Shown here in pieces: positions 175 through 18,469 of a stretch of DNA of 34,793 nucleotides; position 1 is the first letter of the stretch; each line of letters begins with the position of its first letter. Both the position numbers and the translations under genes were made by a program. Origin of the DNA: Oscillibacter sp. (GTDB lineage Bacteria > Bacillota > Clostridia > Oscillospirales > Oscillospiraceae); NCBI GenBank assembly GCA_022796315.1, contig JAAWIL010000001.1, forward strand, positions 1-34,793, written 5' to 3'. The notes beneath the pieces were generated by a model. The model worked only from the letters and a program-made list of their open reading frames with translations, ran no database searches and was not told the origin of the DNA.

Positions 175-735
175 TCAGGATGCCTGCGCATGGCTGTTTG
201 CCTTTCGCGTGTTCCAAATCGGGGTCAGGCGGCACAGGATCTTGGCCCCCAGCAGGCCGCAGATCACCCCGGAGGCTGCCGCGACACAAAGGTACAACGC
301 CAGGGCGAAGCCGGACAGGCGGAATACAATGAGATTTGCGGTAAAGGCAGCTGCCATGGAGGCGGCGCCATTGGCGGCAGGCATGGAGGATTCCGGGGGC
401 AGGGCTCTTTTCCGCGCGGTCCAGAGGATCAGGTCTATGACAATTCCTGGCGCAATATAGCCGATGGGGGAGAGGGCACCCATGCTTCCCACCATGCCAA
501 AGGCAAGCGCAAGGACGCTCTGCACCGCGCCCATGACAGCGCCGCAGCCGGCATGGGGGATGAATGCGGCCGCAATCACCAGGAACATCAGGGAAAAGCC
601 GGTTCCAATGCCCCCCGGAATGTGCAGCGCGTCCGTGATGAGATTGGCAGCCGGCGCAATCAGCCGCTTTGAAAACAGCCCCAAATCACAGCACAGGGCC
701 AAAAAGATCATCTGCCTGAGCGAAAATTTTTTCAT
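175..735 (-). CDS. ECF transporter S-component-like membrane protein (186 aa)
   Basis: Start MKKFSLRQMIFLAL at 735 with AAGAGG upstream; several hydrophobic Gly/Ala-rich helices and size typical of S components; the ORF-track extension to 1053 runs through the riboswitch. Confidence 0.7.
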   Translation of the reverse strand: MKKFSLRQMIFLALCCDLGLFSKRLIAPAANLITDALHIPGGIGTGFSLMFLVIAAAFIPHAGCGAVMGAVQSVLALAFGMVGSMGALSPIGYIAPGIVIDLILWTARKRALPPESSMPAANGAASMAAAFTANLIVFRLSGFALALYLCVAAASGVICGLLGAKILCRLTPIWNTRKANSHAQAS

Positions 736-866: not shown

Positions 867-907
867 AAAAAAGCGGACGCTTTCGCTGAAAACGAAAACG
901 CCCGCTT
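867..907 (-). terminator. Intrinsic terminator; riboswitch expression platform
   Basis: Minus strand AAGCGGGCGTTTTCG-loop-CGAAAGCGTCCGCTT then T run, between aptamer and CDS. Confidence 0.8.
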
Positions 908-1096: not shown

Positions 1097-2422
1097 TCAA
1101 AAGCCGCTTCTCCCTGCGGAGGATTCCAGGACCTGGGGCAGCGGCGCCCTGGGGGCCTCCAGCTGCTGAATGTATGCGGTCAGAGACCGCTGCAGGGCGG
1201 CATATTTTCCGGAATCTCCGGCCTCAGCGGTCTCCCATGGAATGGGCGCGCCCTTTTGCAGCTGGTCCAGCATCTCTGTGACGCCGTCCATGGTATTGAC
1301 GAACTGCGCGCCGGCGATGCGTCCGCCGTAAAGGAGAACACGACGGTAGCCGCCACAGCTGTGAGACGCTAAAACCTGATAATCCAGCCCCTTCAGATCC
1401 TGCTCAGTCTTTCCAAAGGCAACGACGGGTGTCTGACCGATATAGGTGAGAAATACCGCCATAGATCCGGTGAACTCTTTTTCCTGGCCCGCACAGTTCG
1501 CCCCGGCCACCATGCCGCCGCGGGCTGCGGGCTCCCAGAACAGGTTCAGCGCCGGCTTTCCGCTGAGACGGTCCGGAGATTCCGTGCAGTCCCCGCAGGC
1601 GTAGATGTCCGGCAGATTGGTACGCATGTGTGAATCCACCCGAATGCCGCCCAGCTCGCCCAGGGCAATGCCGGTTTTCCGGGCAAGCTCCACCTGGGGG
1701 CGCACGCCAATCCCCCAGAGAATCAGGTCGCAGGGGATGACCCGCCTGGAGGTGCGGACGGCCTGGACGCGGCCATTGCCTTCAACACCCATGACGGATT
1801 CGCCGCTATAGACCTCCAGACCGTTGCTGCGCAGGGCCTTAACCACTTCGCCGGCAGTCTCCTTGTCAAAGGACCGCATGCTGATCCAGTCCAGCGCCTC
1901 CACCACGGTGACCCGCTCATAGCCGCGTTCCTTGAGGGCAAGGCCGCCCTCCAGTCCAATCGCTCCGGAGCCCACAACCACCGCGTGCTTTCCCGGGTAA
2001 GCGACAATCGCTTCCACATCGTCAATGGTTTTCAGGACGAAGTTTCCGGGGAGAGTGGTTCCCTTCATCCGGTGCAGCCGGATGGGGAAGCTTCCCGTGG
2101 CCACAATCAGCTTTCCGTAGGAAAATTCTTCACCGCCGGCGGTGGACACGGTCTTGCGGTCCGGGTCGATGATGGTGACTTCGTCGTTCAGGCGGAGCTG
2201 AATGTTGTGGGTGATATAGTCCTCAAAGGTTTTTACCAGAATCTTCTCTTTAGACAGCTCTCCGGAGAGATAGTCTGGAAGTGCCGGGGCCGCATACTCC
2301 GGATGCACCTCTTTTCCAAGGATCATAATGGACATCTCAGGGCGCAGTCTGCGAGCCGTCAAGGCCGCGCTGTTGCCGGCGACTCCGTTTCCGATGATCA
2401 GCAGATCGACATTGTGCACCAT
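1097..2422 (-). CDS. FAD-dependent pyridine nucleotide oxidoreductase (NADH oxidase/NirB/AorC-like, 441 aa)
   Basis: IIGNGVAG (FAD), ATGS, VVGSGAIGLE (NAD), TNLPDIYACGD; ATG at 2422 in TAATG overlap with the upstream stop. Confidence 0.88.
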   Translation of the reverse strand: MVHNVDLLIIGNGVAGNSAALTARRLRPEMSIMILGKEVHPEYAAPALPDYLSGELSKEKILVKTFEDYITHNIQLRLNDEVTIIDPDRKTVSTAGGEEFSYGKLIVATGSFPIRLHRMKGTTLPGNFVLKTIDDVEAIVAYPGKHAVVVGSGAIGLEGGLALKERGYERVTVVEALDWISMRSFDKETAGEVVKALRSNGLEVYSGESVMGVEGNGRVQAVRTSRRVIPCDLILWGIGVRPQVELARKTGIALGELGGIRVDSHMRTNLPDIYACGDCTESPDRLSGKPALNLFWEPAARGGMVAGANCAGQEKEFTGSMAVFLTYIGQTPVVAFGKTEQDLKGLDYQVLASHSCGGYRRVLLYGGRIAGAQFVNTMDGVTEMLDQLQKGAPIPWETAEAGDSGKYAALQRSLTAYIQQLEAPRAPLPQVLESSAGRSGF

Positions 2423-3321
2423 TAGACGGTCCCCCTTGTCAGATTCCTGCGCTCCAGGGCTTTTAAGTGTTTTGAGAGCGCTGTCAGCTCTTCCGGTGTA
2501 CACGGTTCGCCTAAACAGGCGGTCAGCAGCTGGGCCAGCCGCTGCTTGGGCTTGCTGGCGGAAAACCCGGTTTTGTTCCAGGCGACCCCGAGTGCCGCAA
2601 ACACAGGATCGCCTCCGCCGTCGAAGGGGGAGGACGCGGGGGCCTCCGGGGAGACCGGGCAGCCGGCGGACAGGAACCGCACAGGGCGGCTCCGTCCGCT
2701 CTGCGGCAGATTCCTGGAGCGGATCGCCTCCTGCCAAAGCTCCACGCAGAGCGGGGTAAAGCGGCGGCTGTCCGCAAGGGGAATCGCCCCGTCCCCCTCC
2801 GCGATTACAGCGCAGATCCCTTTGTTCAGCAGGCGTTGGGCAATGTACTCGCCAGCAATGACAAAACAGCGGTCTTCTGTTACGGATTCCCGGCTTACGG
2901 TCAGCAGCGCCGCATCCTCAAAGCGGCGCACGGCCAGCAGGGAGGAGGCGTTTCCCACCGGATTCTCAAAGGTGATCTCACCCTGACAAATCCGCAGGCG
3001 CAGAGGCTGCGGACTGCTCCCGGTGATGAAGAGCATGTCGATTCCGGCACAGCGGAGCGCGGCGCCGAACCGGCCCTCCGCAGCGGCATGATGTACAGCT
3101 CCGCGGCGCAGGCAGCTCCAAACCATGGCCCCGGAGCCGGGGACGCCTGTTCCGGTCAGCGGGCCCGTGCTGAAGGCAACAGCTTCGGGGTCCAGCTCCC
3201 ACAAAAAGCGCATCTCTTCAAAGTGCAGGCTCCAGCAGCCAAATTGTCCGGCAGAGACCTCCTTGACTGCGGCCGTCCGGTTGAGCAGGTCAATCAGCGC
3301 GTATCGCACGATTCTCTGCAT
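2422..3321 (-). CDS. Degenerate, shortened aldehyde:ferredoxin oxidoreductase (AOR)-like subunit (299 aa)
   Basis: TGPLTGTGVPGSG and GRFGAALRCAGIDMLFITGSSPQP match the AFOR N-terminal domain; about half normal AOR length; TAATG coupling at both ends. Confidence 0.72.
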   Translation of the reverse strand: MQRIVRYALIDLLNRTAAVKEVSAGQFGCWSLHFEEMRFLWELDPEAVAFSTGPLTGTGVPGSGAMVWSCLRRGAVHHAAAEGRFGAALRCAGIDMLFITGSSPQPLRLRICQGEITFENPVGNASSLLAVRRFEDAALLTVSRESVTEDRCFVIAGEYIAQRLLNKGICAVIAEGDGAIPLADSRRFTPLCVELWQEAIRSRNLPQSGRSRPVRFLSAGCPVSPEAPASSPFDGGGDPVFAALGVAWNKTGFSASKPKQRLAQLLTACLGEPCTPEELTALSKHLKALERRNLTRGTV

Positions 3322-3800
3322 TAGTTCACACCCCCTTCCGTCGGATTCAGCAGGTTTTGCGCATATTTGCTGCGGAGATCCAGGCTGGCCTGATGGACGT
3401 CCTCAAACCGCAGCGCCTGAGTGGGACAGACCTTGACGCAGACGGGGTCGCCGCCGCAGAGATCGCAGGTGACAAAGGCCTCCTGATCCCGGTCGTATGT
3501 CACTGCGCCCACTGGGCACATCACCCTGCATGCCGCGCAGGCAAAGCAGTCCTCCGTCCTGCGGCTGACCACACCGGTTCCGGGGTCCTTGTCAATGATC
3601 CCCCGCATACAGGCGGATACGCATACCGGTTCCGCGCAGTGCTGGCACACCACGGCGTACTGCGTGTCGATCCCGCCGGCGCGCCGGATGCGGATACGGG
3701 CGTCTGAGGGCATCACGGTTCCCTTTTTTGCGATGGAGCAAATCATCTGGCAGGCGCCACAGCCAGTACATTTTGCGCGGTCAATCGTTAGAATTTTCAT
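3321..3800 (-). CDS. 4x[4Fe-4S] electron-transfer subunit (AorA/HydN-like)
   Basis: CTGCGACQMIC, CQHCAEPVCVSAC, CFACAACRVMCP, CDLCGGDPVCVKVCP. Confidence 0.92.
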   Translation of the reverse strand: MKILTIDRAKCTGCGACQMICSIAKKGTVMPSDARIRIRRAGGIDTQYAVVCQHCAEPVCVSACMRGIIDKDPGTGVVSRRTEDCFACAACRVMCPVGAVTYDRDQEAFVTCDLCGGDPVCVKVCPTQALRFEDVHQASLDLRSKYAQNLLNPTEGGVN

Positions 3801-3833
3801 GTCAACTCTCCATGGCAGACCTTGCGCGCCCCG

Positions 3834-4343
3834 TCATGGCCGGGCGCCGGGCGGCTTGAAGGTTCCGTCTGCGTAGCGGCTGCGCAGAATGGCAGAAATC
3901 TCCTCCACGGTTCCGCACAGGATGGCCTCTGCGGGACAGTTGCGGGCGCAGGCCGGCAGATCGCCCTCATCAATGCGGTTATAGCACATGGTGCATTTCT
4001 GCATCAGGCCGTTGGCGCCAAACTGCGGCACGCCAAAGGGACAGGCCCACAGACACTCGTGGCAGCCAATGCACGTTTTCTGGTTGCCCAAAACGATTCC
4101 GTCGCTCCGCTTGCGGAGGGCGCCGGTGGGACAGGCCTTGACGCAGGGGGCGTCGCCGCAGTGCTGGCAGGGGATGGGGAGGAAGCTAAGATGCGCATCC
4201 TCGCCGCTGCCGCACTCCACCTCGGCCACCATGGTGAAGCGCGGGCCGGCGGGCAGGCTGTTCTCCAGCTTGCAGACCGTCTCACAGGCACGGCATCCCA
4301 TACACCGCTTGGTGTCCACGTAAAGAATCATCTGCTTTTCCAT
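3834..4343 (-). CDS. 4x[4Fe-4S] DmsB/NrfC-type beta subunit
   Basis: CMGCRACETVCK, CQHCGDAPCVKACP, CIGCHECLWACP, KCTMC..PACARNCP; follows the Mo subunit. Confidence 0.92.
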   Translation of the reverse strand: MEKQMILYVDTKRCMGCRACETVCKLENSLPAGPRFTMVAEVECGSGEDAHLSFLPIPCQHCGDAPCVKACPTGALRKRSDGIVLGNQKTCIGCHECLWACPFGVPQFGANGLMQKCTMCYNRIDEGDLPACARNCPAEAILCGTVEEISAILRSRYADGTFKPPGARP

Positions 4344-4356
4344 CTTGTGTCCCTCC

Positions 4357-6579
4357 TCACATCTTTTGAACTTCTACCAGGGTGTTGAAGTAGGAACCGG
4401 TATTGCCGTCCAGCAGCGGATGATATTCCTGCATGATGCCGTGCTCCTGCAGGATATCCCGGGGACCGGCGGGATACACGCCCGTCAGCTTGTTGACGCT
4501 GCCGCCCAGCTTTACCCACATGCCGCTGCTCATCTCGATGACGCCGCTTTTGACGCGCACACCAACCCGCGCAATGATGTTTTTCAGCTCTCCCCGGTCG
4601 TTGAAGATCCGCACCAGGTCGCCGTCCTGGATTCCGCGGGCGGCGGCGTCCTCCCGGCTCATAAAGATCCGCGCGGGGCCTTCGATTTCCTGAATCCAGG
4701 GGAGGTTGTAGTACTGTGAGTGGGTCCGGAAGGCGGGGTGCTGGGAGATGACGTTCAGCGGATATTTTTTCGCCAGCTCCGGTGTGGCATAGACGCTTTC
4801 CGCCGGTTCCTGGAATTCGGGCACGGGGTTGAACTCCCCCGGGAAGGTCTTCCCGCGGGTCTCCATCATGGAGGAGTACAGCTCCACCTTGCCGGAGGGC
4901 GTGTCAAAACCGTTTTGATACGGAATCTTCGGGCACCACTTCTCGGGATTGCGGACCGGCCCATGGGGGGAGACCGCCGCGTCCACGTCGCATTCCTCCC
5001 CGATCAGCATGCGGATGTAGTCCAGTCCGGTCCGCTCGCGGGGAAAGTACTTCTCGTACCCCAGGCGGCGGCCCAGTTCCTCAAAGATCTCAATATCAGG
5101 CACGCACTCATAGGGCGGCTGACAGACCGGGACAAGGATCTGATTGTAGGGGTGCCAGTAAGAGGGGTGCAGACCGTACTGTTCCAGGTAGTGACAGGCG
5201 GGAAGCACCAGATCGGCGTAATCGGTGTCATCCGTCATGAACTGTTCGACCGTCACAAACATGTCCAGCATGTTGACGGCCTCAATCGTGTAATCCACAT
5301 GGGGCTGCTGAGAGATCAGTCCGCCCCGGAACGAAAGGATGCCCTTGATCGGCGGCTCCTTGGCCTCGTGAATGGCTGCGGCGATGGCGGCGATGTTGAT
5401 CAGCCGGGTCTTTCGGATCTCGGCCCCCTCGGGTTCCGTGACATTGGCCCAGTGGGCAAAACCGGTCAAGTTGGGGAATCCCATGCCGGAGATGAAGTTA
5501 TAGTTGCCGCTCTCCTTGCCAAAGCTGCCGCACACGGCCGCCAGACAGGCCAGCGCGCGCTGAGCCTGGTGGCCGTTGCTGTAGCGCTGCTGGCCATAGC
5601 CGGTTTCAAAATGCGATTTGGTCGTGGCCAGCAGCTCTGCGGCCTGGATGATCTGCGCTTTGGGGATGGTTGTCACCTCCTCCGTGCGCTCCGGCGTCCA
5701 TTCCTCTGCCAGCGCTGCAAGCTCCGCAAAGCCCACCGTGTGCTCCGCAAGGAACGCCTTGTCCTGTAGGCCCTGCTTGATGATCCAGTGGATCATCCCC
5801 AGCGCCATTGCCCCATCCGTACCCGGCCGGGGCCGCAGGTGCAGGTCTGCCTTGGCGGCGACCCCTGTTGTGTAGGGATCCACCACGATCAGTCTGGCGC
5901 CGCGCTCCTTGGCCCGGTATAGGAAAGGAAAGATATGCGGGTTTGTGGCAGAGCAGTTTCTGCCCACCAGGAATACGGTCTCGCAGTGCTCGGACCAGAT
6001 GGCCGGGTCCATGGTGTACTGGCTGCCGACGCTGCAATAGGAACCGGCCGCGCCGGACAGCAGACAGAAGCTGCCTGCCAGTTTGCTGGCGCCCATCAGG
6101 TTCCACAGACGTGCGCTGACCGCCTTTGCCATGTGCTCCCGGTTGCCGGAGTAGCAGTATTCCACCAGTGCCTCGCTGCCATATTGTTTCTGGATGCCGG
6201 TGATCTTTTCCACCATCCAGTCCATAGCCTCGTCCCAGGTAATCCGCTTGAACTTGCCCTCACCCCGCTTTCCAACCCGCAGCATGGGGTATTTCACACG
6301 GTCGGGGCTGTTGATCTTTTCCACGTTGGCAAAGCCCTTGAGGCACAGATGTCCGCGGGTAATCGGGTGTTCCGGATTGCCCTCAATTTTGATGACCTTT
6401 TCGTCCTTTACGTAGACCAGCTCGCCGCAGGTGTCGTAGCAGTTGTGCGGACAGCAGGTTTTTACCACACGGTCCGCAATCACCTTTTTGCCGCCCAGCC
6501 ACACGGGCACGTTGGCTCCGGCGGCGTACCGGTCCAGATCCTCGCATTTTCGCCAAGGAATGGGATGATAGCTCTCCAT
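4357..6579 (-). CDS. DMSO-reductase-family bis-MGD molybdoenzyme catalytic subunit, cytoplasmic (740 aa)
   Basis: CPHNCYDTC..HLCLKG Fe-S motif, RITWDEA, PRPGTDGAMALG, DTDYADLVLPA, C-terminal HSQ motif; no Tat signal; start MESYHP with AGGGG RBS. Confidence 0.92.
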   Translation of the reverse strand: MESYHPIPWRKCEDLDRYAAGANVPVWLGGKKVIADRVVKTCCPHNCYDTCGELVYVKDEKVIKIEGNPEHPITRGHLCLKGFANVEKINSPDRVKYPMLRVGKRGEGKFKRITWDEAMDWMVEKITGIQKQYGSEALVEYCYSGNREHMAKAVSARLWNLMGASKLAGSFCLLSGAAGSYCSVGSQYTMDPAIWSEHCETVFLVGRNCSATNPHIFPFLYRAKERGARLIVVDPYTTGVAAKADLHLRPRPGTDGAMALGMIHWIIKQGLQDKAFLAEHTVGFAELAALAEEWTPERTEEVTTIPKAQIIQAAELLATTKSHFETGYGQQRYSNGHQAQRALACLAAVCGSFGKESGNYNFISGMGFPNLTGFAHWANVTEPEGAEIRKTRLINIAAIAAAIHEAKEPPIKGILSFRGGLISQQPHVDYTIEAVNMLDMFVTVEQFMTDDTDYADLVLPACHYLEQYGLHPSYWHPYNQILVPVCQPPYECVPDIEIFEELGRRLGYEKYFPRERTGLDYIRMLIGEECDVDAAVSPHGPVRNPEKWCPKIPYQNGFDTPSGKVELYSSMMETRGKTFPGEFNPVPEFQEPAESVYATPELAKKYPLNVISQHPAFRTHSQYYNLPWIQEIEGPARIFMSREDAAARGIQDGDLVRIFNDRGELKNIIARVGVRVKSGVIEMSSGMWVKLGGSVNKLTGVYPAGPRDILQEHGIMQEYHPLLDGNTGSYFNTLVEVQKM

Positions 6580-6617: not shown

Positions 6618-8546
6618 TTATTTGTAGTGGATTGCGCGCCCCTCCACGGCCAGGGCGGCTTCCTTCATCGCCTCCGCAACAGTGGGGTGCGCGTGGATGG
6701 TTTGAATGATATCCTCCACGCCGGCTTTCATCTTCATAGCCATGGCGCCCTCCGCGATGAGATCCGTGGCACGGGCACCCAGGATGTGGACGCCCAGGAT
6801 CTGGCTGGTCCTGGCATCCGCAAGGATTTTGACCCAACCGCCGGTCTGGCCCATGATTACAGATTTTCCATTGGCCTCCAGGGGGAACTTTCCGACTTTG
6901 TAGTCCAGCTTCTGCGCGTTTGCTTCTTCCTCGTTGAGTCCGACACAGGCAAATTCCGGTGTCATATATACACAGGAGGGACATACCCGCTCGTCATATT
7001 TTGCCTCTTCCCCGAGGGCATTCTCTGCGGCGATCTCACCCATGGCAGACGCCGTGTGTGCCAGCATGGTCTTTCCGGTGCAGTCTCCGATGGCATAGAT
7101 TCCGGGAATGTTGGTTTCAAGCCGGCTGTTTGTCACAATGTGGCCGCGCTCGGTTTCCACTCCGGCGGCCTCCAGGTGCAGGGAGGCGATATTGCTCCGG
7201 CGTCCCACGGCCACCAGCACCTTCTCCGCCTCAAAGGCCGTCTCCTTGCCGGTCTTCAGTCTGGTCCGCACACGGGCGCCGGTCTCGCAGGCTTCCAAGC
7301 CGGTCACCTGGGTCTCCAGAGAGAAGCGGATTCCCTGTTTTTCCATCATGCCCTGTGCCGCCCGCGTCAGTTCATCATCCATCATGGGCAGGATGCGGGG
7401 CATCATCTCCACAATGGTGACTTGGGTTCCAAAAGCGGCATAGGTGCATGCCAGTTCGATGCCGATCACACCGCCGCCGATGATAACCATGGATTTGGGC
7501 AGCGCGTCCAAGGTCAGCGCGCCAGTGGAATCCACGCAGTTTGGAGTTTCCGCGAGTCCGGGAATCGGCGGCATGACCGGAATGGAGCCTGACGCCAGAA
7601 TAAACCGGTCCGCCTGGACCTCCAGCGTCTCTCCGCCGGCTTTGACAACGGAAAGCGTGTGGGCGTCCCGGAAGGAGGCGCGGCCCTCCAAAACCTCTAC
7701 GCCGTGAGCGGCCAGCAGCCCCTCCACGCCGGAGATCAGCCGGGCGGAAACTGCGGCGCGGTGGGCCTGCACGGCTGCCCAGTTGATGGAGAGATCACGG
7801 GCGCGGATTCCCACGGTTTCGCCATGCTTTGCGGCGGTATAGACCTCCGCGCTGTGGAGCAGCGCCTTGGTGGGAATACATCCGACGTTGAGACAGGTCC
7901 CTCCCAGCGTTTTCATCTCGATCAGCAGGACGCTGGCGCCCAGTTGTGCGGCCCGGATCGCCGCGACATATCCGCCGGGGCCGCCGCCGACGACAACGAC
8001 CCTTGTGGCTTTGGGAACTGCCGGAGCGTGGCTGGTTCCGTCAGATTCAACGCAGGCGAGAAGATCGTCCTTTTTCACAGACGCGCCCGCTTGCGCGGCG
8101 ATCTGGATCAAGGTTCCGCTTACGGGGCTTGCAACATCCGTATTCATTTTCCCGGCGGCTACAGACACCAAGGGCTCCCCCTGCTTTACCAGATCCCCCT
8201 CCGCCTTATGCCACATTTTCACGCTTGCGGGGCCGCCGGTTTTTGGCAGCTTGACGGGTACCACCTCGCCGGCCGGGATGAGAGGGCCCTGTTCCGGCGG
8301 CGGTGCGTTTCCCTCCGCTGCTGTTTCGAGGGCGCAGACGGGGGCTCCGCCCGGGACGGTCTCTCCGTTCTGCATGAAAATTTCCAAAACCTGTCCGCTG
8401 AATGGGCTGGCGACTTCCCGCGTTATCTGCATGGGTCCCACAAGAACCCTGCACAGCAGGTCTCCCTTCTGTACGCGGTCGCCGGCCTTTACCTGCCACT
8501 GCTTCAGGGTGCAGGCTGACTTCATCACTGAAATGGTCTGTTTCAT
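6618..8546 (-). CDS. lpdA: Dihydrolipoamide dehydrogenase with two N-terminal lipoyl/biotinyl-like domains
   Basis: GGGPGGYVAAIRAAQLG, GGTCLNVGCIPTK redox disulfide, GGGVIG, HAHPTVAE; two W-x-x-x-x-GD-x-V..SP-x-SG repeats at N-terminus. Confidence 0.93.
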   Translation of the reverse strand: MKQTISVMKSACTLKQWQVKAGDRVQKGDLLCRVLVGPMQITREVASPFSGQVLEIFMQNGETVPGGAPVCALETAAEGNAPPPEQGPLIPAGEVVPVKLPKTGGPASVKMWHKAEGDLVKQGEPLVSVAAGKMNTDVASPVSGTLIQIAAQAGASVKKDDLLACVESDGTSHAPAVPKATRVVVVGGGPGGYVAAIRAAQLGASVLLIEMKTLGGTCLNVGCIPTKALLHSAEVYTAAKHGETVGIRARDLSINWAAVQAHRAAVSARLISGVEGLLAAHGVEVLEGRASFRDAHTLSVVKAGGETLEVQADRFILASGSIPVMPPIPGLAETPNCVDSTGALTLDALPKSMVIIGGGVIGIELACTYAAFGTQVTIVEMMPRILPMMDDELTRAAQGMMEKQGIRFSLETQVTGLEACETGARVRTRLKTGKETAFEAEKVLVAVGRRSNIASLHLEAAGVETERGHIVTNSRLETNIPGIYAIGDCTGKTMLAHTASAMGEIAAENALGEEAKYDERVCPSCVYMTPEFACVGLNEEEANAQKLDYKVGKFPLEANGKSVIMGQTGGWVKILADARTSQILGVHILGARATDLIAEGAMAMKMKAGVEDIIQTIHAHPTVAEAMKEAALAVEGRAIHYK

Positions 8547-8612: not shown

Positions 8613-8963
8613 TTAGTCAAAATCATGCTCGAATTCATCCAGCGCGGCATTTAACACTGCGGCGCTGTAAGCGACGCTGGGACCGCCGCCAAAGGCAATG
8701 GCCACCTCGGCAGCCGCCATGATTTCCTGCCGTGTGGCGCCGGCGGCATAGGCGCCGCTGGTATGTACACAGATGCAGTACTGGCAGCGGTTGTAGATCC
8801 CGATTGCCACGCCGATCAGCTCCTTGGTTTTGGAGGAGAGGATGTCGCCGCCCGCGCTGCCGTCCAGATCCATGAACTTCTGCATAAAGGCAGAATCCAT
8901 GCCGGAGAGTGCGCCCACACCGTTTGTAAAATCATTCAAAATTTCTCTCGCATTGATTGCCAT
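8613..8963 (-). CDS. Carboxymuconolactone decarboxylase/AhpD-family protein with CxxC
   Basis: LSSKTKELIGVAI..RCQYCICVH..GATRQEI..AIAFGGGP; GGAGG RBS. Confidence 0.9.
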   Translation of the reverse strand: MAINAREILNDFTNGVGALSGMDSAFMQKFMDLDGSAGGDILSSKTKELIGVAIGIYNRCQYCICVHTSGAYAAGATRQEIMAAAEVAIAFGGGPSVAYSAAVLNAALDEFEHDFD

Positions 8964-9020: not shown

Positions 9021-9049
9021 ACTATATCACTTAGCATACTAATTGTCAA
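9021..9049 (-). promoter_or_regulatory. SigA promoter of block A with a dyad in the spacer
   Basis: TTGACA-17 bp-TATAGT; spacer holds the imperfect palindrome TTAGTATGCTAA. Confidence 0.8.
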
Positions 9050-9302: not shown

Positions 9303-9370
9303 TAAATTAAAATCTCATGCAGAACTTATGCAGTTCAACGGCCAAATCCGACATGGGGGTGATGCGCACA

Positions 9371-10963
9371 ATGGGCAAGCCAAAATTTGTAACTGCCGCT
9401 GAAGCGGTTTCACACATCAAGCGTGGAGATACCGTTGCAATCTCCGGCTTTATTGGTATGGGGCACGCGGAAGAGATTACATATGAGCTGGAACGGCGCT
9501 TTTTGGAAACGAAGGCGCCCGGTGATCTGACAGTCGTGTGGGGCTCCAGCCAAAGCAATACCAAGGACCGGATTGGCTGCGACCGATTCTCCTATCCCGG
9601 TTTTGTCAAACGGGCAATCGTGGGTCACATTGGAATGCAGTATCACTTGTCCGAAATGGCGGCCAATAATGAATTTGAGGCGTATAACATCCCTATGGGC
9701 GTTCTGATTCATATGCTGCGCGCCCGGGGCGGAAACAAGCCCTGTATCACTACGCCGGTTGGCCTTGGGACGTTTGCGGACCCGCGTGAGGGCGGCGGAA
9801 AGCTGAATCAGCGAACCGTTGAAAACGGACCGGATTACGTTTCTGTTGTGGAGATGGACGGCAAAGAGTATTTGCAGTACAGGACCTTTGACGTCAACGT
9901 CGCAATCATCCGCGGCACTACGGCTGATACACATGGCAATATCACTATGGAGCATGAGGGAATTCTGCTGGAGACGCTGGAGTATGCCGCAGCGGCCCGG
10001 GCCTCCGGCGGCATTGTGATCTGCCAGGTGGAGCGGACCTGCCAGACGAATACGATGAATCCTCAGGATGTCCGGGTTCCCGGAATATTGGTGGACTATG
10101 TGGTGCAGACCTCCGATGTGGAGAAGTTCCACAAACAGACCTATAACATCTCCTACAACGGCGCTTTGAGCGGAGAGATTAAGATTCCCGTGGATTCCGT
10201 ACCGCCGCTGGAGATGAGCGTCCGCAAAATTATGGCCCGCCGGGCAGCTATGGAGCTGGTTCCTGGCTCTGTGGTTGATTTGGGCATGGGGGTTCCCGAC
10301 GGGGTCAGTAATGTCGCCGTTGAGGAAGGTCTGGACAGCGAGCTCATGATGCTGGTGGAATGCGGTGTTATCGGAGGTTCGCCCTGTTCTGGGTTTGACT
10401 TTGGCTGCGCTTACAATCCGGAGGCGATGATTCCCCAGCCCGCTCAGTTTGATCTGTTGGATGGCGGCATTGTGGATCTGGCGGTCCTGAGTATGGCAGA
10501 GCTCGATCAGTATGGCAATGTCAACGTATCGAAATTCGGCCCCCGCATTTACGGCGCTGGCGGGTTTATCAACATAGCCCAGAACTGCAAGACGTTGGTT
10601 TTTGTGGGAACAATGACGACGGGCGGCTTGAAAGCGGAGATTCGTGACGGCGGTATTCAGATTACACAGGAGGGCCGCAGTAAAAAGATGGTTCCTCTGG
10701 TGGGACATAAGACCTTCTCTGGACAGCAGGCGCAAAAAATGGGGCAGAAGGTTCTCTATGTGACCGAGCGGGCAGTGTTTGAAATGCGTGAAGAGGGTCT
10801 GACGCTGATTGAAATTGCTCCAGGCGTTGACCTGGACCGGGATATTCTGAAGCAGGTGGACTTTACACTCAACATTGCGGAGGACCTGCGTCTGATGGAT
10901 CAACGCATTTTCCGGACGGAACCCATGGGGATCTATGATGAGATTATGGCAAAAGGTGAATAA
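9371..10963 (+). CDS. Family I acyl-CoA:acetate CoA-transferase, single chain (YdiF/Pct-like, 530 aa)
   Basis: VGLGTFADPR, IIRGTTAD..GN, DLGMGVPDG, catalytic Glu in VECGVIGG, GNVNVSKF, GGFINI, YVTERAVF; GGGGGTGA RBS. Confidence 0.93.
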   Translation: MGKPKFVTAAEAVSHIKRGDTVAISGFIGMGHAEEITYELERRFLETKAPGDLTVVWGSSQSNTKDRIGCDRFSYPGFVKRAIVGHIGMQYHLSEMAANNEFEAYNIPMGVLIHMLRARGGNKPCITTPVGLGTFADPREGGGKLNQRTVENGPDYVSVVEMDGKEYLQYRTFDVNVAIIRGTTADTHGNITMEHEGILLETLEYAAAARASGGIVICQVERTCQTNTMNPQDVRVPGILVDYVVQTSDVEKFHKQTYNISYNGALSGEIKIPVDSVPPLEMSVRKIMARRAAMELVPGSVVDLGMGVPDGVSNVAVEEGLDSELMMLVECGVIGGSPCSGFDFGCAYNPEAMIPQPAQFDLLDGGIVDLAVLSMAELDQYGNVNVSKFGPRIYGAGGFINIAQNCKTLVFVGTMTTGGLKAEIRDGGIQITQEGRSKKMVPLVGHKTFSGQQAQKMGQKVLYVTERAVFEMREEGLTLIEIAPGVDLDRDILKQVDFTLNIAEDLRLMDQRIFRTEPMGIYDEIMAKGE

Positions 10964-11010
10964 CGTTTCGCCGTTGTGATTCAAAATTACAGAAATAGGA
11001 GGGCTTAAAA

Positions 11011-12162
11011 ATGTCTGCGATTGTTGAGGCAAAAGACTACATCTGCACCGAGGAGCTGGCAGAACTGCGGCTGAGAATACGCAAGTTTGCGGAGGACGTA
11101 CTGGCCCCGAAAGCCAGGGAGATTGATGAACATGGATTTGACAGAGAGCACTATCAAAAGGTCATGGACGCAAAACTGGCGGCCATTGCGGTCAGCAAGG
11201 CCGATGGGGGAGAGGGCGCCGGTACGGTTGGCCGCTGCGTAGTTCTGGAGGAGATGAGCAGAGTTTGTCCCTCTACTGCGCTTACGTTCCTGGTTGGCGG
11301 TATGGGAATGTATTCCTCCATTGCGACCGAAGAGCAGAAACGGAAATATTATTATCCCTGGATTGGGGGCAAGATTTTGCCGGCGTTCTGCCTGACTGAG
11401 CCCGGTTCCGGTTCGGATGTCGCCGCCAATGCTGCGACTGCGGTTCGCGATGGAGACGAATATGTGATCAACGGCGTTAAGACCCTGACTACAAACGGCG
11501 CCAGTGCCGATATTCTGAACGTCTGGGCCGTCACCAATCCTGAGGTTCCTGCGTCCAGGGGGATGTCTGCCTTTGTGGTAGAGAAGGGGACTCCCGGTGT
11601 AACCGCAAAGGTCCAAAAAACCATGACTCTGCGCGGTGCGGAAGTGGCGGAAATCAAGTTTGAAAATTGCCGGATTCCCGCAGAGAATCTGCTTGGCGAA
11701 GAGGGCAAGGGGTTCAAATATGCTATGAGCGGTATTGCCGGCGGCCGGATCAACGCGGCGGCTTGTTCCATCGGAATTGCGCAGCATGCGCTGGAACTGG
11801 CGGTAGCCTACGCGAAGAGCCGGGTCCAGTTCAAGCAGCCCATCGGCAGCAACCAGGGACTCGGCTTTGAGCTGGCTGACATGAAGTGCAAGCTGGAGTC
11901 CGCCAGAGCCTTGGTATTCAAGGCCGCCGCCATGATTGATGCCGGCCTGCCCGAGGCGGGCGAGTTCGCGGCGCTGGCAAAGATTGAGGCAACGGAGGCC
12001 GCGCAGTTCTGCGCGGATCGCTGCCTCCAGATTCATGGAGGCTTTGGCTGCACCACCGACTGTGACGCGGAGCGCGTTTACAGAGACGCACACGCCGGCA
12101 GAATTTATGACGGCACCACCGACATTTTGAAGATGATTGTCTCTCGTTCTCTCCTGAAATAA
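11011..12162 (+). CDS. Acyl-CoA dehydrogenase (short-chain/butyryl-CoA type)
   Basis: FCLTEPGSGSD, INGVK, GRINAAA, RVQFKQPI, QIHGGFG, RIYDGT. Confidence 0.93.
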   Translation: MSAIVEAKDYICTEELAELRLRIRKFAEDVLAPKAREIDEHGFDREHYQKVMDAKLAAIAVSKADGGEGAGTVGRCVVLEEMSRVCPSTALTFLVGGMGMYSSIATEEQKRKYYYPWIGGKILPAFCLTEPGSGSDVAANAATAVRDGDEYVINGVKTLTTNGASADILNVWAVTNPEVPASRGMSAFVVEKGTPGVTAKVQKTMTLRGAEVAEIKFENCRIPAENLLGEEGKGFKYAMSGIAGGRINAAACSIGIAQHALELAVAYAKSRVQFKQPIGSNQGLGFELADMKCKLESARALVFKAAAMIDAGLPEAGEFAALAKIEATEAAQFCADRCLQIHGGFGCTTDCDAERVYRDAHAGRIYDGTTDILKMIVSRSLLK

Positions 12163-12332
12163 GCAACTCAGAGAATGCGCGTCAGAAAACAGCGAATCGG
12201 GAACAGTCTCTTTGTGATGGAAACATCTTTGTTATGTTTCCGGCCTGCAAAACTTCCGGCGCTTATTCGCGCATACGCATATTGAGGGAAGCCGTATGTT
12301 CTCAAATATGCAGAAAAATAGGAGGATTTTCA

Positions 12333-13427
12333 ATGAAAAGGCTTTTGACTCTGATCCTGGTGCTTTTGATGGTCATGAGTATGCTGAGCGGCTGCGGCGG
12401 TTCGACGTCTCCCGGCAGCGGCGGCAGTGATGATGGGAGCGCCGCTCCCGCAAATGCGGTTGTCATTAAGTTTGCCCATGCCGGCGCGATTATGGAGGGC
12501 GATCCCCAGCACGAGGGCGCCCTGTACTTTGAGAAGATCCTGGAAGAGCGGTCCAACGGCTATTATGACGTTCAAGTTTTTGGCAGCACGCAGCTGGGAG
12601 ACACGGTGACCAAACTGGAGGGCATTCAGTCCGGGATCATTGAGATGGGGGATATTGAGTCCGGCCCCACGGTCAGCTTTGTTCCTGCGGAGGCGCTGTG
12701 GGACATGCCCTACATGTTCGTGAGCTGGGACCACGCCCATGACATGATTGACGGTGAGCTGGGCGACATGGTGGCGGAAAAGTGGCTGGACATCGGTATT
12801 GAGGTTCTGGGCTACAATGACGGCGGTTTCCGGCATTTCTCAAACTCCAAGCGTCCCATCTGTACGCCTGCGGATCTGAACGGCGTGAAGATCCGCACCA
12901 TGGAATCTGAGGTGATGGTGGCGGCGCTGAACGCACTGGGCTGTTCGGCTATGCCTCTGGCCTTTGGCGAGGTTTACTCCGCCCTGCAGCAGGGCGCCAT
13001 TGACGGTGTTGAAACCCCGTATAACCTGATCTTCTCCCAGGCCTACTATGAAGTGGAGAAGTACATCTCTCCCACTGGGCATTTCTTCTTCCTGCGCCAT
13101 TATCTGGCGAATTCCGACTGGCTTGCTTCCCAGCCTGAAGACATGCAGGCCCTGATCAGGGAGTGCGCTGCCGAGGCCTGCGCAAAGCAGCGCGAACTGA
13201 ACTATGCGGCCCAGCAGCAGTATAAGACCGATCTCGTTGATAAGTATGGTATGGAGCTGAACGAGGTGGATATCGCGCCCTTTATTCAGATTGCACAGGA
13301 GGAGTTTTGGCCTACACAGTATGAGCGGATCGGCAAGATTCTTGGAGATGGCACGGCAGAGTCCGGCAAGGCGGTTATGGATATGATTGCCGAGTCTGCA
13401 AAGGAGTACACGTACGATTTAGCCTGA
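12333..13427 (+). CDS. dctP: TRAP substrate-binding lipoprotein (364 aa)
   Basis: AGGAGG RBS, lipobox LSGC, GFRHF, KIRTMES, EVYSALQQGAIDG. Confidence 0.93.
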   Translation: MKRLLTLILVLLMVMSMLSGCGGSTSPGSGGSDDGSAAPANAVVIKFAHAGAIMEGDPQHEGALYFEKILEERSNGYYDVQVFGSTQLGDTVTKLEGIQSGIIEMGDIESGPTVSFVPAEALWDMPYMFVSWDHAHDMIDGELGDMVAEKWLDIGIEVLGYNDGGFRHFSNSKRPICTPADLNGVKIRTMESEVMVAALNALGCSAMPLAFGEVYSALQQGAIDGVETPYNLIFSQAYYEVEKYISPTGHFFFLRHYLANSDWLASQPEDMQALIRECAAEACAKQRELNYAAQQQYKTDLVDKYGMELNEVDIAPFIQIAQEEFWPTQYERIGKILGDGTAESGKAVMDMIAESAKEYTYDLA

Positions 13428-13436
13428 GTGTTTGAA

Positions 13437-13478
13437 AACAGGGCTAAGCGGCAGAGAACTCTGTCGCTTAGCCCTGTT
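13437..13478 (+). other. Long hairpin between dctP and dctQ (mRNA stabiliser or attenuator)
   Basis: aacagggctaagcggcaga..tctgtcgcttagccctgtt, about 19-bp stem with one G-U pair. Confidence 0.65.
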
Positions 13479-13496
13479 CGGGAAGGAGCGTTGTTT

Positions 13497-15247: not shown

Positions 15248-15305
15248 GCAGCTGTTTCTCTGGGCGGCATCTTTCAGGAGATGGTACGTTCCGTTTGAGC
15301 CTTCC

Positions 15306-16613: not shown

Positions 16614-16642
16614 CTTGGCTTGCGGTATTTAAAAGAGGGGAG

Positions 16643-17635
16643 TCATGTATAGAGCAACAGATCTTGCAGGTCCTTCTCGGTCATTCCGTTGATGAAAAAG
16701 GGGACGTGGAAGGCGCGCAGCGCGTCCTCCATATCTGATCTGAGCGCCAGACCGACCAGCCGCTGCTCCAATTCGTGAATATCTCCGTTTCCAAAAAAAT
16801 CTCCAAAAAAACGGATTTCCGCGATATGGCCATCCTGCACATTCAGGTGTACTTCTATGCTGCCCCATGGAAACCGCTGCTCGCTGCGCATTTCATAATC
16901 TGCATAGTATCCGTAGTTCCATTTCCAGGTTGCATATTTGGCCTTTTGCAGTTCAGAAATGGCCCGCATGTCCTGTTCTGAGAGGCGATACCGCTGCACT
17001 GTCTTCCCGGAGGAGGAGAAGATCTCGTGTGCAAGCGCTTCCTTAAATGCCTCCATGGAGATTGGCACATTGGTATGGTCTTGTATCGTTGTTACGCGGC
17101 TGGCTACGGAAGAAATCCCCCTGGATTGAAATTTAGCGGTTCGGGGCCTCAATGCCGCCGACAATACATCCAGATTTGAATGCAGCAGGATGCAGCCATG
17201 ATAGAGCAGCCGTCCGTCATTTGAGAATTGCGCACATCCAGAGAACTTTTTTCCATCAATTAAAAGATCGTTGCGTCCATTAAACTCCGCCTGGATGCCC
17301 CATTTCTTCAAAACCTGAATGACAGGTTGGGCAAAATGGAGAAAATTAAGGGAATCCATGCCCGTTTGACTGCTCAGCAGTGTGTAATTCAAATTCCCGA
17401 TATCGTGGTATACAGCGCCTCCGCCCGAAAGACGGCGGGCAACCTTGATCTGTGCCTCATCTACATAGGATTGATTGATTTCCTCGGCTGTATTCTGAAA
17501 TCTTCCCACAATAATAGAATTTGTGTTTTGCCATAACATCAGAAGTTCCTGCTGTTTGTCCAGCGTTTGAAAGAGATGTTCCTCAAGCGCCAGATTGAAA
17601 TAGGGGTCCAAAGAGGGGGATTCTAAGAAAAGCAT
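16643..17635 (-). CDS. lplA: Lipoate-protein ligase A
   Basis: PYFNLALEE, RRLSGGGAVYHDIGN, GRNDLLIDGKKFSG, C-terminal FFGDFF domain. Confidence 0.95.
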   Translation of the reverse strand: MLFLESPSLDPYFNLALEEHLFQTLDKQQELLMLWQNTNSIIVGRFQNTAEEINQSYVDEAQIKVARRLSGGGAVYHDIGNLNYTLLSSQTGMDSLNFLHFAQPVIQVLKKWGIQAEFNGRNDLLIDGKKFSGCAQFSNDGRLLYHGCILLHSNLDVLSAALRPRTAKFQSRGISSVASRVTTIQDHTNVPISMEAFKEALAHEIFSSSGKTVQRYRLSEQDMRAISELQKAKYATWKWNYGYYADYEMRSEQRFPWGSIEVHLNVQDGHIAEIRFFGDFFGNGDIHELEQRLVGLALRSDMEDALRAFHVPFFINGMTEKDLQDLLLYT

Positions 17636-17727: not shown

Positions 17728-18171
17728 TCAGCTCTCGCAGTCAGAAATTCTCTCGACATTGTGGATAATCTGCGCCATTACACGTTTGAAAACATCCAAG
17801 TCCTCAGGGGAAATGTCTTTCGTTCCGTCCTTGTTGAACGCTTCAACAATCGGAAAAAGCGCATCGAGCGCGGCTTTTCCCTTTTCTGTCAGAGCGATCA
17901 ATTTGGAACGAAAATTCTCGGGGTCGCCCGTTCTCGTGACCAACCCATGATTCTCCAGGCGTTCGATTAAATGCACGACAGAAGGCTCACTGATTACCAT
18001 CGTGTGGGCCAGATTCTTTTGTGATATTTTATGATGCTGGTCAATAAAATAGAGAGCTGTCCACTGTGTTCTGGTCAAATCCTGCTTTTTGAACTGGTTA
18101 TTCATCGCCTCACCAACAGCCTTTGCGCCGTTGTTGGTAAGAAAGGCGATACAGTCATGTACATCAAACAT
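17728..18171 (-). CDS. MarR-family regulator (147 aa)
   Basis: LTRTQW..ISQKNLA..LIERLENHGLVTR..LTEKG; start MFDVHDC inferred. Confidence 0.88.
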   Translation of the reverse strand: MFDVHDCIAFLTNNGAKAVGEAMNNQFKKQDLTRTQWTALYFIDQHHKISQKNLAHTMVISEPSVVHLIERLENHGLVTRTGDPENFRSKLIALTEKGKAALDALFPIVEAFNKDGTKDISPEDLDVFKRVMAQIIHNVERISDCES

Positions 18172-18298
18172 CTCGCTTCCCCGCTTCTCATCAAAATCCT
18201 GCGCGTTTCTTGCGCTCACCCAATGGATGCACGCTGCCTTCCCGTCCTGAAGGCAGCGGTTCACCACATCATTGAAATCCATTATACAGGGAATCAAG

Positions 18299-18469
18299 TT
18301 GAAAAAAGCGCAAAATGCACTTTTCAATCAGCCGGCCGCCGGTCCGCTGGCGTGTGAAGCGCGCTTGATTCCCCGTGAGGTACAAGTCAGGGCCGTGTAC
18401 GTGGCCTCCAGCGGCGATTGACCGACGCTGGGCGTTCCAAAATATCATAGGATATTTTGGAACTTACTT
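18299..18469 (-). ncRNA. Candidate structured small RNA or 5' leader of unknown family
   Basis: Follows a consensus-like promoter; 13-bp perfect hairpin, long-range stem enclosing two small stems, terminator-like hairpin at 18299-18327. Confidence 0.35.

What the first reader, a model, noticed from the sequence alone, without database searches (positions are those of the whole stretch)
1097..6579. Chimeric complex: DMSO-reductase-family head on an AOR-type Fe-S/NAD(H) module
Seen: Mo subunit, DmsB-like, second 4x[4Fe-4S], shrunken AOR, FAD/NADH oxidoreductase; the last three are TAATG-coupled; no membrane anchor or Tat signal. Known: Fe-S, AOR, FAD protein is the aorABC layout, and Aromatoleum AorA polymerises into a wire capped by NAD-linked AorC. 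Inference: the AOR electron wire has been reused to link an unrelated Mo enzyme to NAD(H), a soluble five-subunit architecture I do not recognise as described.
Basis: partly seen in the sequence, partly recalled or inferred. Interest (0 to 1): 0.82.

Follow-up and report, generated by a model that had tools for sequence, protein, structure and literature searches.

The report
Molybdenum enzyme on a dead-enzyme scaffold
This conserved gene cluster encodes an unstudied molybdenum-type enzyme that is likely wired to NADH through iron-sulfur and flavin proteins likely borrowed from a tungsten aldehyde enzyme, whose stripped-down remnant is kept and predicted to act as a scaffold, and it sits beside a lipoate-based thiol relay, so it likely reduces an oxidised sulfur compound.

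Summary
In detail: five genes on the minus strand, the last three TAATG-coupled, no Tat signal or membrane helix. The order is conserved across Bacillota: 13 of 25 loci long enough to judge are five-gene and 9 are a fused four-gene form. The 299-aa 'shrunken AOR' is a conserved pseudoenzyme family: AOR fold, no tungsten site, usually no cluster ligands, dN/dS 0.13-0.37. It shortens along one branch of the enzyme's tree, down to a probable two-helix remnant fused to the polyferredoxin. It is predicted to bind that polyferredoxin (0.88, best control 0.00; possibly from likeness to solved AorAB). The link between the two Fe-S proteins and filament formation are untested. Best reading: a soluble NAD(H)-linked Mo enzyme of a new subfamily acting, with a lipoate/AhpD relay, on an oxidised sulfur compound; substrate inferred only. 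Three look-ups found no earlier scan report of it.

The parts
4357..6579 (-). Mo/W-bis-PGD catalytic subunit, 740 aa, uncharacterised subfamily; FS0 ligands C43/C47/C51/C79, metal ligand likely C172; no Tat signal
3834..4343 (-). FeS1: DmsB-like 4x[4Fe-4S] subunit, 169 aa, with a C-terminal extension (likely a helix) that is absent in two-gene relatives
3321..3800 (-). FeS2: AorA/WorS-like 4x[4Fe-4S] polyferredoxin, 159 aa, all 16 Cys invariant in 17 of 17 homologues, C-terminal helix
2422..3321 (-). AOR remnant (pseudoenzyme), 299 aa: N-terminal domain plus last helices of an AOR, about 250 residues deleted; predicted structural subunit on FeS2
1097..2422 (-). FAD/NAD(H) oxidoreductase, 441 aa, AorC/NarC/PadH type; lacks the redox Cys of CoA-disulfide reductases
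6618..8546 (-). Dihydrolipoamide dehydrogenase with two N-terminal lipoyl domains (second keeps the lysine, first lacks it); redox CxxxxC intact
   Evidence: (541.8 bits, cut-off 408.8)
8613..8963 (-). AhpD-like CMD-family protein, 116 aa, CxxC motif
   Evidence: (TIGR00778)
9021..9049 (-). sigma-70-like promoter match (11 of 12, extended -10) upstream of the CMD gene; consensus match only
878..894 (-). terminator-like stem 200 bases after the FAD gene; consensus match only (17 found, 8.9 expected)
16643..17635 (-). Lipoate-protein ligase LplA; within a few kb of the cluster in relatives, here separated by a CoA-transferase/TRAP block
   Evidence: (404.9 bits, cut-off 280)
17728..18327 (-). 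MarR-family regulator, conserved beside the cluster in close relatives (L004, L005, L009, L012)

Best explanation
The five genes likely encode one soluble cytoplasmic oxidoreductase in which a Cys-ligated Mo/W-bis-PGD enzyme of an uncharacterised subfamily is likely wired to NAD(H) through its DmsB-like subunit, an AorA-like polyferredoxin and an AorC-type flavoprotein, while the AOR gene between them has lost its tungsten site and is predicted to survive as a structural subunit. Proposed path (inferred): NADH to FAD to FeS2 to FeS1 (joined by C-terminal helices as in AorA, WorS and HycB3/B4) to FS0 to Mo. The remnant would cap the FS1 face of FeS2, where AorB sat in the ancestral operon. The enzyme likely works with a second relay, NADH to Lpd to lipoyl to AhpD-like dithiol. 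Most likely chemistry (inferred, about 0.35): the Mo centre removes an oxygen from an imported oxidised sulfur anion (sulfinate, thiosulfinate or sulfoxide type) and the dithiol relay reduces the resulting sulfenate or disulfide to a thiol, giving a fermenter an NADH sink. Shown: genes, motifs, synteny, loss of AOR cofactor residues, purifying selection. Predicted: remnant-FeS2 binding. Inferred: FeS1-FeS2 link (about 0.7), direction, substrate class.
For: Synteny: of 25 loci with at least 63% Mo identity and at least 3.2 kb downstream, 13 are five-gene and 9 four-gene fused (10 and 7 after dropping five near-duplicates). Remnant family: 29 clusters at E<=1e-30, 262-431 aa. Its model aligns 291 of 299 residues to 1aor residues 1-544 (Z 27.2, rmsd 3.5). 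dN/dS 0.37, 0.13, 0.37 in 3 of 3 pairs. Complex prediction FeS2 + remnant: 0.88 in three runs, best of 3 controls 0.00; the mark was reached by 116 of 157 solved complexes and 2 of 215 mismatched pairs (rough here, own alignments); runs share at least 86% of contacts, partner pLDDT at least 83. Like complexes are solved (AorAB, WorSL, WOR5, BamBC), so the pass may be from likeness. The predicted interface includes the remnant's most conserved residues G57, G59, P61, L217, S218 and FeS2 residues 8-16 and 123-129 around C11/C14/C125. 13 of 18 full-length AOR loci have an upstream polyferredoxin, closer to FeS2 than to FeS1 in 13 of 13. FeS1 lacks its tail in the three two-gene loci (one clade). 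CMD plus a lipoyl carrier in 14 of 17 loci with at least 7 kb upstream: Lpd fusion in 9, GcvH-like with LipS-like synthases in 5. AhpD and OsmC are reduced by lipoyl systems (PMC8945050, passages). Distant relatives carry OsmC and an ABC binding protein whose best NCBIfam hit is SsuA (106 bits, cut-off 163.5).
Against: The FeS1-FeS2 junction was not modelled or tested. The remnant is dispensable as a separate gene in one clade, and one clade keeps only Mo + FeS1; L032/L034 place the head beside a different module. The remnant's last two helices (258-291), which seem to be what the fused clade keeps, are not in the predicted FeS2 interface, so capping FS1 does not explain that remnant. CMD is missing within 9-10 kb upstream in L008, L010 and L042, and CMD and Lpd were found elsewhere in only 1 of 4 genomes whose loci lack them. 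The OsmC directly downstream in distant relatives has one Cys only. No substrate evidence is direct; no characterised homologue lies above about 220 bits. MoeA was not found in this 88.7% complete genome.
Confidence: 0.6

Rival explanations
1. Two separate units share an operon. Mo + FeS1 trades electrons with a soluble carrier; FeS2 + remnant + FAD protein is an independent NADH diaphorase serving that carrier or the thiol relay.
For: Mo + FeS1 occurs alone in L027-L029 and beside other modules in L032 and L041/44/46. The gene gaps differ: 33 bases between FeS1 and FeS2, overlaps among the last three. No test of the junction.
Against: Strict order Mo-FeS1-FeS2 in 22 of 25 long loci. FeS1 keeps a C-terminal tail where FeS2 follows and lacks it in the two-gene clade (one event). 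Such helices join polyferredoxins in AorABC, WorABCSL and HDCR.
Confidence: 0.2
2. Same complex, run as an oxidase of a reduced or intermediate sulfur species (for example sulfite or a sulfinate) with NAD+ as acceptor, the lipoyl carrier collecting electrons or sulfur as in the sHdr-LbpA pathway.
For: Deeper relatives carry a GcvH/LbpA-like carrier, LipS1/LipS2-like synthases and HdrB/C-like genes, a lipoylation set first described in sulfur oxidisers (PMC10332631, passages). AorABC itself reduces NAD+.
Against: No HdrA, TusA or DsrE among the 33 cluster proteins scanned. [quoted passage not shown] Close carriers are fermentative gut Clostridia, which as a rule need electron sinks (general knowledge).
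Confidence: 0.2
3. The remnant has a new binding or catalytic role (ligand sensing, carrier docking) rather than being only a scaffold.
For: New conserved residues replace the tungsten-site motifs in the ~300-aa branch (W68, E82, R84, E149, D150 invariant in 10 of 10). Two deep members keep CxxCxxxC (2 of 35).
Against: In 36 sequences only four glycines are invariant; dN/dS is 4-7 times that of the Mo gene; nearly the whole protein is deleted in one clade.
Confidence: 0.1
4. The AOR gene is a decaying pseudogene with no function.
For: All cofactor residues are lost, it evolves fastest of the five genes, and it is deleted in some lineages.
Against: Intact frame and translational coupling in all 13 five-gene loci at about 20-46% identity; dN/dS well below 1; confident fold (pLDDT 80, pTM 0.82).
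Confidence: 0.04
5. It is a divergent fermentative nitrate reductase or formate dehydrogenase.
For: Same three-part layout as clostridial Nar; best PDB hit is FdhF of HDCR (219 bits).
Against: Far below every family cut-off (NasC 207/1100, NapA 86/904, Fdh-alpha 263/666). The His after the metal ligand of FdhF/FdhH is replaced by a Leu here, and the FdhF 'RGQNNVQG' motif is absent. No nitrite- or formate-handling genes were seen in the neighbourhoods annotated.
Confidence: 0.04

Closest known systems
AorABC of Aromatoleum aromaticum (PDB 8c0z; PMC10413684, read: first two parts of the text, Discussion, passages)
   Same: Gene order polyferredoxin - AOR fold - FAD protein; AorA-like FeS2 with C-terminal helix; soluble; NAD(H)-linked.
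   Different: The AOR subunit here is half-length and lacks tungsten and (in the window) cluster ligands; catalysis is taken over by a DMSO-reductase-family head with its own Fe-S subunit. That paper suggests swapping AorB for other activities as an engineering idea, not as a natural system.
Clostridial fermentative nitrate reductase NarABC (PMC9124969 and PMC3082573, passages) and the CooS-4Fe4S-FAD/NAD clusters
   Same: A catalytic head + 4Fe-4S electron-transfer subunit + NADH-oxidase-type subunit, cytosolic, no anchor.
   Different: One Fe-S subunit rather than two, no AOR remnant, a Nap/Nas-type head (recalled), no lipoate/AhpD genes described.
HDCR (FdhF-HycB3-HycB4-HydA2; PDB 7qv7; seen only through passages of PMC10413684 and PMC12318220) and WorABCSL (PDB 9mqx; PMC12318220, passages)
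   Same: DMSO-reductase-family head on two different polyferredoxins (HDCR); modules joined by C-terminal helices.
   Different: The far end here is an AorC-type flavoprotein; the head lacks formate-dehydrogenase residues; filament formation untested.
AhpD / lipoyl protein / Lpd peroxidase relay (PMC8945050, passages)
   Same: CxxC AhpD-like protein, lipoyl domain, dihydrolipoamide dehydrogenase.
   Different: Lipoyl domains are fused to Lpd; no AhpC in the cluster; coupled to a Mo enzyme.
sHdr-LbpA sulfur oxidation system with sLpl(AB)-LipS1/S2 (PMC10332631 and bioRxiv 10.64898/2026.10.01.755906, passages)
   Same: In deeper relatives: stand-alone GcvH-like carrier, LipS1/S2-like synthases, lipoate ligase, HdrB/C-like genes.
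   Different: No HdrA, TusA or DsrE in those clusters; CMD, GlcD/GlcF-like proteins and a Mo enzyme instead; the window has none of the LbpA/LipS genes.
Phenylglyoxylate:NAD+ oxidoreductase PadEFGHI (names from NCBIfam; function recalled)
   Same: FeS2 resembles the PadI N-terminus and the FAD protein resembles PadH, below cut-off.
   Different: TPP-dependent head; shows again that the polyferredoxin/FAD pair is a general plug-in to NAD(H).

Membership tests
DMSO reductase (Mo/W-bis-PGD) family | Fe4S4, molybdopterin and dinucleotide-binding domains | tested here: met
   PF04879, PF00384, PF01568 all over cut-off
DMSO reductase (Mo/W-bis-PGD) family | Protein ligand to the metal at the family position | tested here: met
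   C172 invariant in 49 of 49; aligns with the Cys/Sec of FdhF, FdhH, PsrA and acetylene hydratase
DMSO reductase (Mo/W-bis-PGD) family | Bound metal (Mo or W) and bis-PGD | not testable with these tools
   moaA, moaC and modA homologues on contig C4; moeA not found; mobB/moeA/mobA-like genes follow the cluster in L005
AOR family, active tungsten enzyme | AOR fold | tested here: met
   Foldseek E 5e-14 to 2e-10 to nine AOR-family chains; Z 27.2, rmsd 3.5, 291 aligned to 1aor
AOR family, active tungsten enzyme | W-bis-MPT and Mg-binding residues, catalytic Glu/His | tested here: not met
   Positions matching AorB Arg75, Asn92, Arg181 are replaced in the profile alignment to 1aor; the region holding the catalytic residues is deleted
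AOR family, active tungsten enzyme | [4Fe-4S] ligands CxxCxxxC plus a distal Cys | tested here: not met
   Absent in the window protein; motif present in 2 of 35 remnants, from G788 and G574
AorABC nanowire enzyme | aorA-aorB-aorC order with an AorA-type polyferredoxin carrying a C-terminal helix | tested here: met
   helix 139-155 in the model of the L010 homologue, best structural matches 9mqx_G and 8c0z_C
AorABC nanowire enzyme | AorC orthologue | tested here: inconclusive
   Same fold family and position, no redox Cys, but 8c0z_E scores 112.6 bits against 172.4 for an NADH oxidase; no tree built
AorABC nanowire enzyme | Catalytically active AorB | tested here: not met
   see AOR rows
AorABC nanowire enzyme | Filament formation | not testable with these tools
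   needs mass photometry or EM
Clostridial NarABC nitrate reductase | Mo head + 4Fe-4S subunit + NADH-oxidase-type subunit, no anchor | tested here: met
   against the description
Clostridial NarABC nitrate reductase | Nitrate-reductase-type catalytic subunit | tested here: not met
   NasC 207.5/1100, NapA 86/904, NarG 91.8/1084 bits; clostridial NarA itself was not compared
Formate dehydrogenase / HDCR | His after the metal ligand and the conserved active-site Arg motif | tested here: not met
   FCLL here against LCHA/VXHG; RGQNNVQG motif unmatched
sHdr-LbpA system | LbpA-like carrier with LipS1/LipS2 and ligase | tested here: inconclusive
   Present in G486, G788, G574, L031/32 (LipS1 243.5/230, LipS2 231.3/270); not found in the window's genome, which has lipoyl-Lpd and LplA
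sHdr-LbpA system | HdrA-like subunit and TusA/DsrE sulfur transferases in the cluster | tested here: not met
   none among the 33 proteins scanned or the 34 window proteins
AhpD/lipoyl/Lpd relay | CxxC AhpD core, lipoyl-lysine domain, Lpd redox disulfide | tested here: met
   CxxC in all 13 full-length CMD homologues printed (L055 is partial); at least one GK lipoyl site and GGxCxxxxC in 9 of 9 Lpd fusions
AhpD/lipoyl/Lpd relay | Actual lipoylation and dithiol exchange | not testable with these tools
   needs anti-lipoyl blot and assay

The most novel reading that the evidence does not exclude
A new lipoate-dependent pathway: a Mo enzyme reduces sulfinates or related S-oxides with NADH, and a lipoyl/AhpD relay finishes the reduction to the thiol. 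The Mo heads polymerise on an AOR-type nanowire whose tungsten enzyme was hollowed out stepwise into a scaffold, a natural case of the head swap proposed for engineering AOR wires.
Probability: 0.2. Interest if true: 0.87.

Novelty: new variant of a known kind. Interest (0 to 1): 0.67.

Why it matters
If correct, it shows how polyferredoxin/flavin wires change heads in nature: a new catalytic module is added and the old one is kept as a shrinking scaffold, with intermediates still visible (two members with cluster ligands, 400-aa, 300-aa and probable two-helix forms). I found no AOR-family pseudoenzyme in the searches run. It also defines a compact, uncharacterised Mo-enzyme subfamily in gut and sediment anaerobes, tied to a dedicated lipoate system; few lipoate-dependent systems are known (PMC10332631). 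Named cultured carriers of the Mo subunit exist (Oscillibacter sp. PC13, Neomoorella humiferrea, Dehalobacterium formicoaceticum, Desulfitobacterium sp.), so substrate and architecture are directly testable.

Tried and rejected
Literature searches found no description of this cluster: molybdopterin oxidoreductase, CMD, Lpd, lipoate ligase, AOR; 4 of 5 terms: 0 papers; 0; truncated/pseudoenzyme AOR: 0; listings unrelated; lipoate papers; two read as passages, neither names it. The library omits most subscription journals; no supplements were read. Earlier scan notes: searches gave one unrelated finding (3 of 110 words) and two blanks. Hypothesis that the fused two helices are the FeS2-binding surface: not borne out, they are outside the predicted interface. 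Homology of those helices to the remnant's C-terminus is only moderate: ranks 2, 3, 4, 7, 87, 159, 488, 993 of 2823 (rank 1 is most likely the window's own remnant, which lies in the decoy set); hhalign probability 26%, E 0.0007. The downstream membrane ORF (735-175) as an anchor: rejected, no Pfam hit and no homologue in any fetched locus. The CoA-transferase/TRAP/Por block as part of the pathway: rejected, not conserved beside the cluster. Remnant profile in five genomes without an adjacent remnant: 0 of 5, but no positive control in that call and the genomes are incomplete. Expression: contigs at 95% or more from 4 mouse-gut RNA runs (3 studies) cover 14-19 of 30 bins, but DNA carry-over is not excluded and no silent stretch was laid, so it is not used as evidence. 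Atlas search gave generic family clusters only. PMC10100899 passages gave no placement for this subfamily. Pairing Mo and remnant proteins by equal longest-contig length (labels) is circumstantial; the final tree uses only direct synteny plus one accession-adjacent pair.


Full report
OBSERVATION. The five genes are on the minus strand at the stated limits: Mo subunit 6579-4357, FeS1 4343-3834, FeS2 3800-3321, AOR remnant 3321-2422, FAD protein 2422-1097. The last three overlap as TAATG. None has a membrane helix, and 0 of 49 Mo homologues has a Tat motif. Directly upstream on the same strand are an AhpD-like CMD gene and a dihydrolipoamide dehydrogenase with lipoyl domains; a promoter-like match precedes the CMD gene. 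The Mo gene is the only PF00384 match in the genome, and the remnant is its only AOR-like sequence found.

THE HEAD. The Mo subunit defines a compact subfamily: 44 full-length clusters at 63-99% identity plus a 43-53% shell, then a drop to 38% and below (best 120 of 166 listed). It reaches no NCBIfam cut-off. Its best solved relatives are FdhF, PsrA and acetylene hydratase at 201-219 bits. C172 is invariant and aligns with their metal ligand; the formate-dehydrogenase His and Arg motifs are absent. It is rare and patchy: 2 of 401 genomes in the family draw and 4 of 401 in the phylum draw, own genome included.

SYNTENY. Of 25 loci with at least 63% Mo identity and at least 3.2 kb downstream, 13 have Mo-FeS1-FeS2-remnant-FAD, 9 have Mo-FeS1-FeS2-FAD with an extended FeS2, 1 has Mo-FeS1 only, and 2 have the head beside a different module. 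Five of these are near-duplicates (L007, L014, L015, L017, L037); without them 10 and 7. The shorter loci and the 43-54% group were left out of this count. A named Syntrophomonadaceae pair has accessions three apart (HHW61764 Mo, HHW61767 remnant). In the roughly 50% group (L041, L044, L046, L049) Mo-FeS1 is followed by OsmC, an ABC transporter, and 8 kb later an Fe-S + FAD pair without a remnant.

THE REMNANT IS A PSEUDOENZYME. A profile of 10 remnants finds 29 clusters at E<=1e-30 among 1.84 billion representatives, 262-431 aa long; full-length AORs start at 1e-19. The model (pLDDT 80, pTM 0.82) matches only AOR-family chains and aligns 291 of 299 residues across 1aor residues 1-544, so about 250 residues are deleted internally. 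Positions matching the pterin- and Mg-binding residues named for AorB are replaced. The CxxCxxxC cluster motif survives in 2 of 35 remnants, both in the sister branch of the Bacillota tree. dN/dS is 0.37, 0.13 and 0.37, against 0.075, 0.018 and 0.083 for the Mo gene (dS 0.57-1.6, partly near saturation). On a 22-row tree of the Mo subunit one branch runs 403, 407, 330, about 300 aa, then one starred clade with no separate gene; a second starred clade has lost FeS2, remnant and FAD gene. Each loss is one event, not several.

In the clade without the gene, FeS2 gains a tail of about 30-60 residues (plus linker) that folds as two helices (167-181, 187-203; pLDDT 86-92 in the best of five models, the other four averaging 61-64), like the remnant's last two helices (258-270, 276-291). 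A profile of remnant C-termini ranks 4 of 8 tails in the top 7 of 2823 sequences and the other 4 at 87-993. With the position, this makes an in-frame deletion-fusion likely but not certain.

BINDING. FeS2 + remnant scored 0.88 in three runs, best of 3 controls 0.00; the mark was reached by 116 of 157 solved complexes and 2 of 215 mismatched pairs (rough here, own alignments). Runs share at least 86% of contacts; partner pLDDT at least 83. Like complexes are solved, so the pass may come from likeness. The interface covers FeS2 around C11/C14/C125 and includes the remnant's best-conserved residues. It does not include the last two helices, so their partner is unknown. The FeS1-FeS2 junction, the heart of the chimera claim, was not tested. 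Indirect support: fixed gene order, and FeS1 ends right after its last cluster in the two-gene clade while keeping a tail elsewhere. C-terminal helices join polyferredoxins in AorABC, WorABCSL and HDCR.

ORIGIN. FeS2's best solved matches are WorS and AorA; FeS1's are ArrB, NrfC and FdhB. 13 of 18 full-length AOR loci from the phylum have an upstream polyferredoxin, closer to FeS2 than to FeS1 in all 13. The FAD protein lacks the redox Cys of CoA-disulfide reductases but is not closest to AorC by score, so its orthology is open.

THE LIPOATE LINK. Of 17 loci with at least 7 kb upstream, 14 carry the CMD gene and all 14 also a lipoyl carrier: Lpd with fused lipoyl domains in 9, a GcvH-like protein with LipS-like radical SAM genes in 5 (11 of 14 after dropping L014, L015, L031). 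The deep clusters (G486, G788, G574, L032) add GlcD/GlcF-like genes and, in most, HdrB/C-like, MFS, archaemetzincin-like and sigma-54 regulator genes. Two different lipoyl kits thus travel with the same Mo enzyme and CMD. AhpD is reduced by lipoyl proteins with NADH. Against universality: L008, L010 and L042 lack CMD upstream, and CMD + Lpd + LplA were found unlinked in 1 of 4 genomes tested (G441).

MECHANISM. Inferred: NADH to FAD to FeS2 to FeS1 to FS0 to Mo, with the remnant holding the place of AorB. In parallel NADH to Lpd to lipoyl to the CMD dithiol. Two 2-electron relays, an oxygen-transfer-type metal site, thiol proteins in most neighbourhoods (CMD; one-Cys OsmC; DsrE in L048) and an SsuA-like importer in distant relatives point to an oxidised sulfur anion reduced in two steps. 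I put the single complex at about 0.7, a functional tie to the relay at about 0.7, reduction of an S-oxygenated compound at about 0.35, and the oxidative direction at about 0.2. No substrate evidence is direct.

COMPARISON. It works like clostridial Nar or the CODH-4Fe4S-FAD/NAD clusters and, with two polyferredoxins, like HDCR. It is not a member of the nitrate-reductase, formate-dehydrogenase or active AOR families by the tests above. The AorABC paper proposes exchanging AorB on the wire as an engineering idea. Ten literature searches found no account of this cluster or of a dead AOR subunit, within a library that lacks most subscription journals.

VERDICT. Real and conserved. A new variant of a known kind: the plug-in NAD(H) module is known; the AOR pseudoenzyme series, the Mo subfamily and its lipoate/AhpD partnership appear undescribed. 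Interest 0.67.

Noticed in passing
L097, L098, L102, L104 (G486, G788, G574) and L031/L032: Deep relatives replace lipoyl-Lpd + LplA by a GcvH/LbpA-like carrier, LipS1/LipS2-like radical SAM genes, a lipoate ligase, HdrB/C-like and GlcD/GlcF-like genes, suggesting that GlcDF or HdrBC can stand in for dihydrolipoamide dehydrogenase.
   Followed up: partly
L032:12891-18453: The same Mo + FeS1 head is followed by a degenerate second molybdopterin-family gene, another Fe-S protein with a C-terminal tail and NiFe-hydrogenase-like subunits: possibly an H2-driven version of the enzyme.
   Followed up: no
L041, L044, L046, L049: Roughly 50%-identical relatives sit with a one-Cys OsmC, an NMT1/SsuA-like ABC transporter with three permeases, a TPR protein and a separate Fe-S + FAD pair.
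   Followed up: partly
L048 and L051: More distant members: L048 with two DsrE genes and a sodium:solute symporter; L051 with Mo-FeS1-FAD directly and a full AOR on the opposite strand.
   Followed up: no
L098:7313-8416 and L102:7966-8928: These two AOR remnants keep CxxCxxxC and a distal Cys, so they may still bind a [4Fe-4S] cluster without tungsten.
   Followed up: partly
L006:455-6363: A Cys/Met PLP lyase, NhaC-like and YfcC-like transporters and a YgeY-like M20 hydrolase precede CMD-LplA-Lpd-Mo; a possible hint of a sulfur amino acid substrate in one genome only.
   Followed up: no
window 9317-27324: A block with CoA transferase, acyl-CoA dehydrogenase, two TRAP systems, a 4-hydroxybutyryl-CoA dehydratase/HpaB-family gene, PorCDAB and a 2-hydroxyacid dehydrogenase; GC 0.546 against 0.627 for the genome; part of it separates lplA/marR from the CMD gene.
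   Followed up: no
window 175-735 (-): Hydrophobic 186-aa ORF with no Pfam or NCBIfam hit, resembling an ECF S-component by eye (recalled); not conserved in related loci.
   Followed up: partly
window 6579-6470 (-): The Mo subunit has an N-terminal extension of about 35 residues before the FS0 motif that is well conserved in the Bacillota members; its role is unexplained and it could be a docking site.
   Followed up: no
window 29618-33145 (-): Response regulator, ABC ATPase of the lantibiotic-protection type, an unannotated 271-aa ORF and a histidine kinase: looks like an ordinary peptide-sensing module.
   Followed up: no
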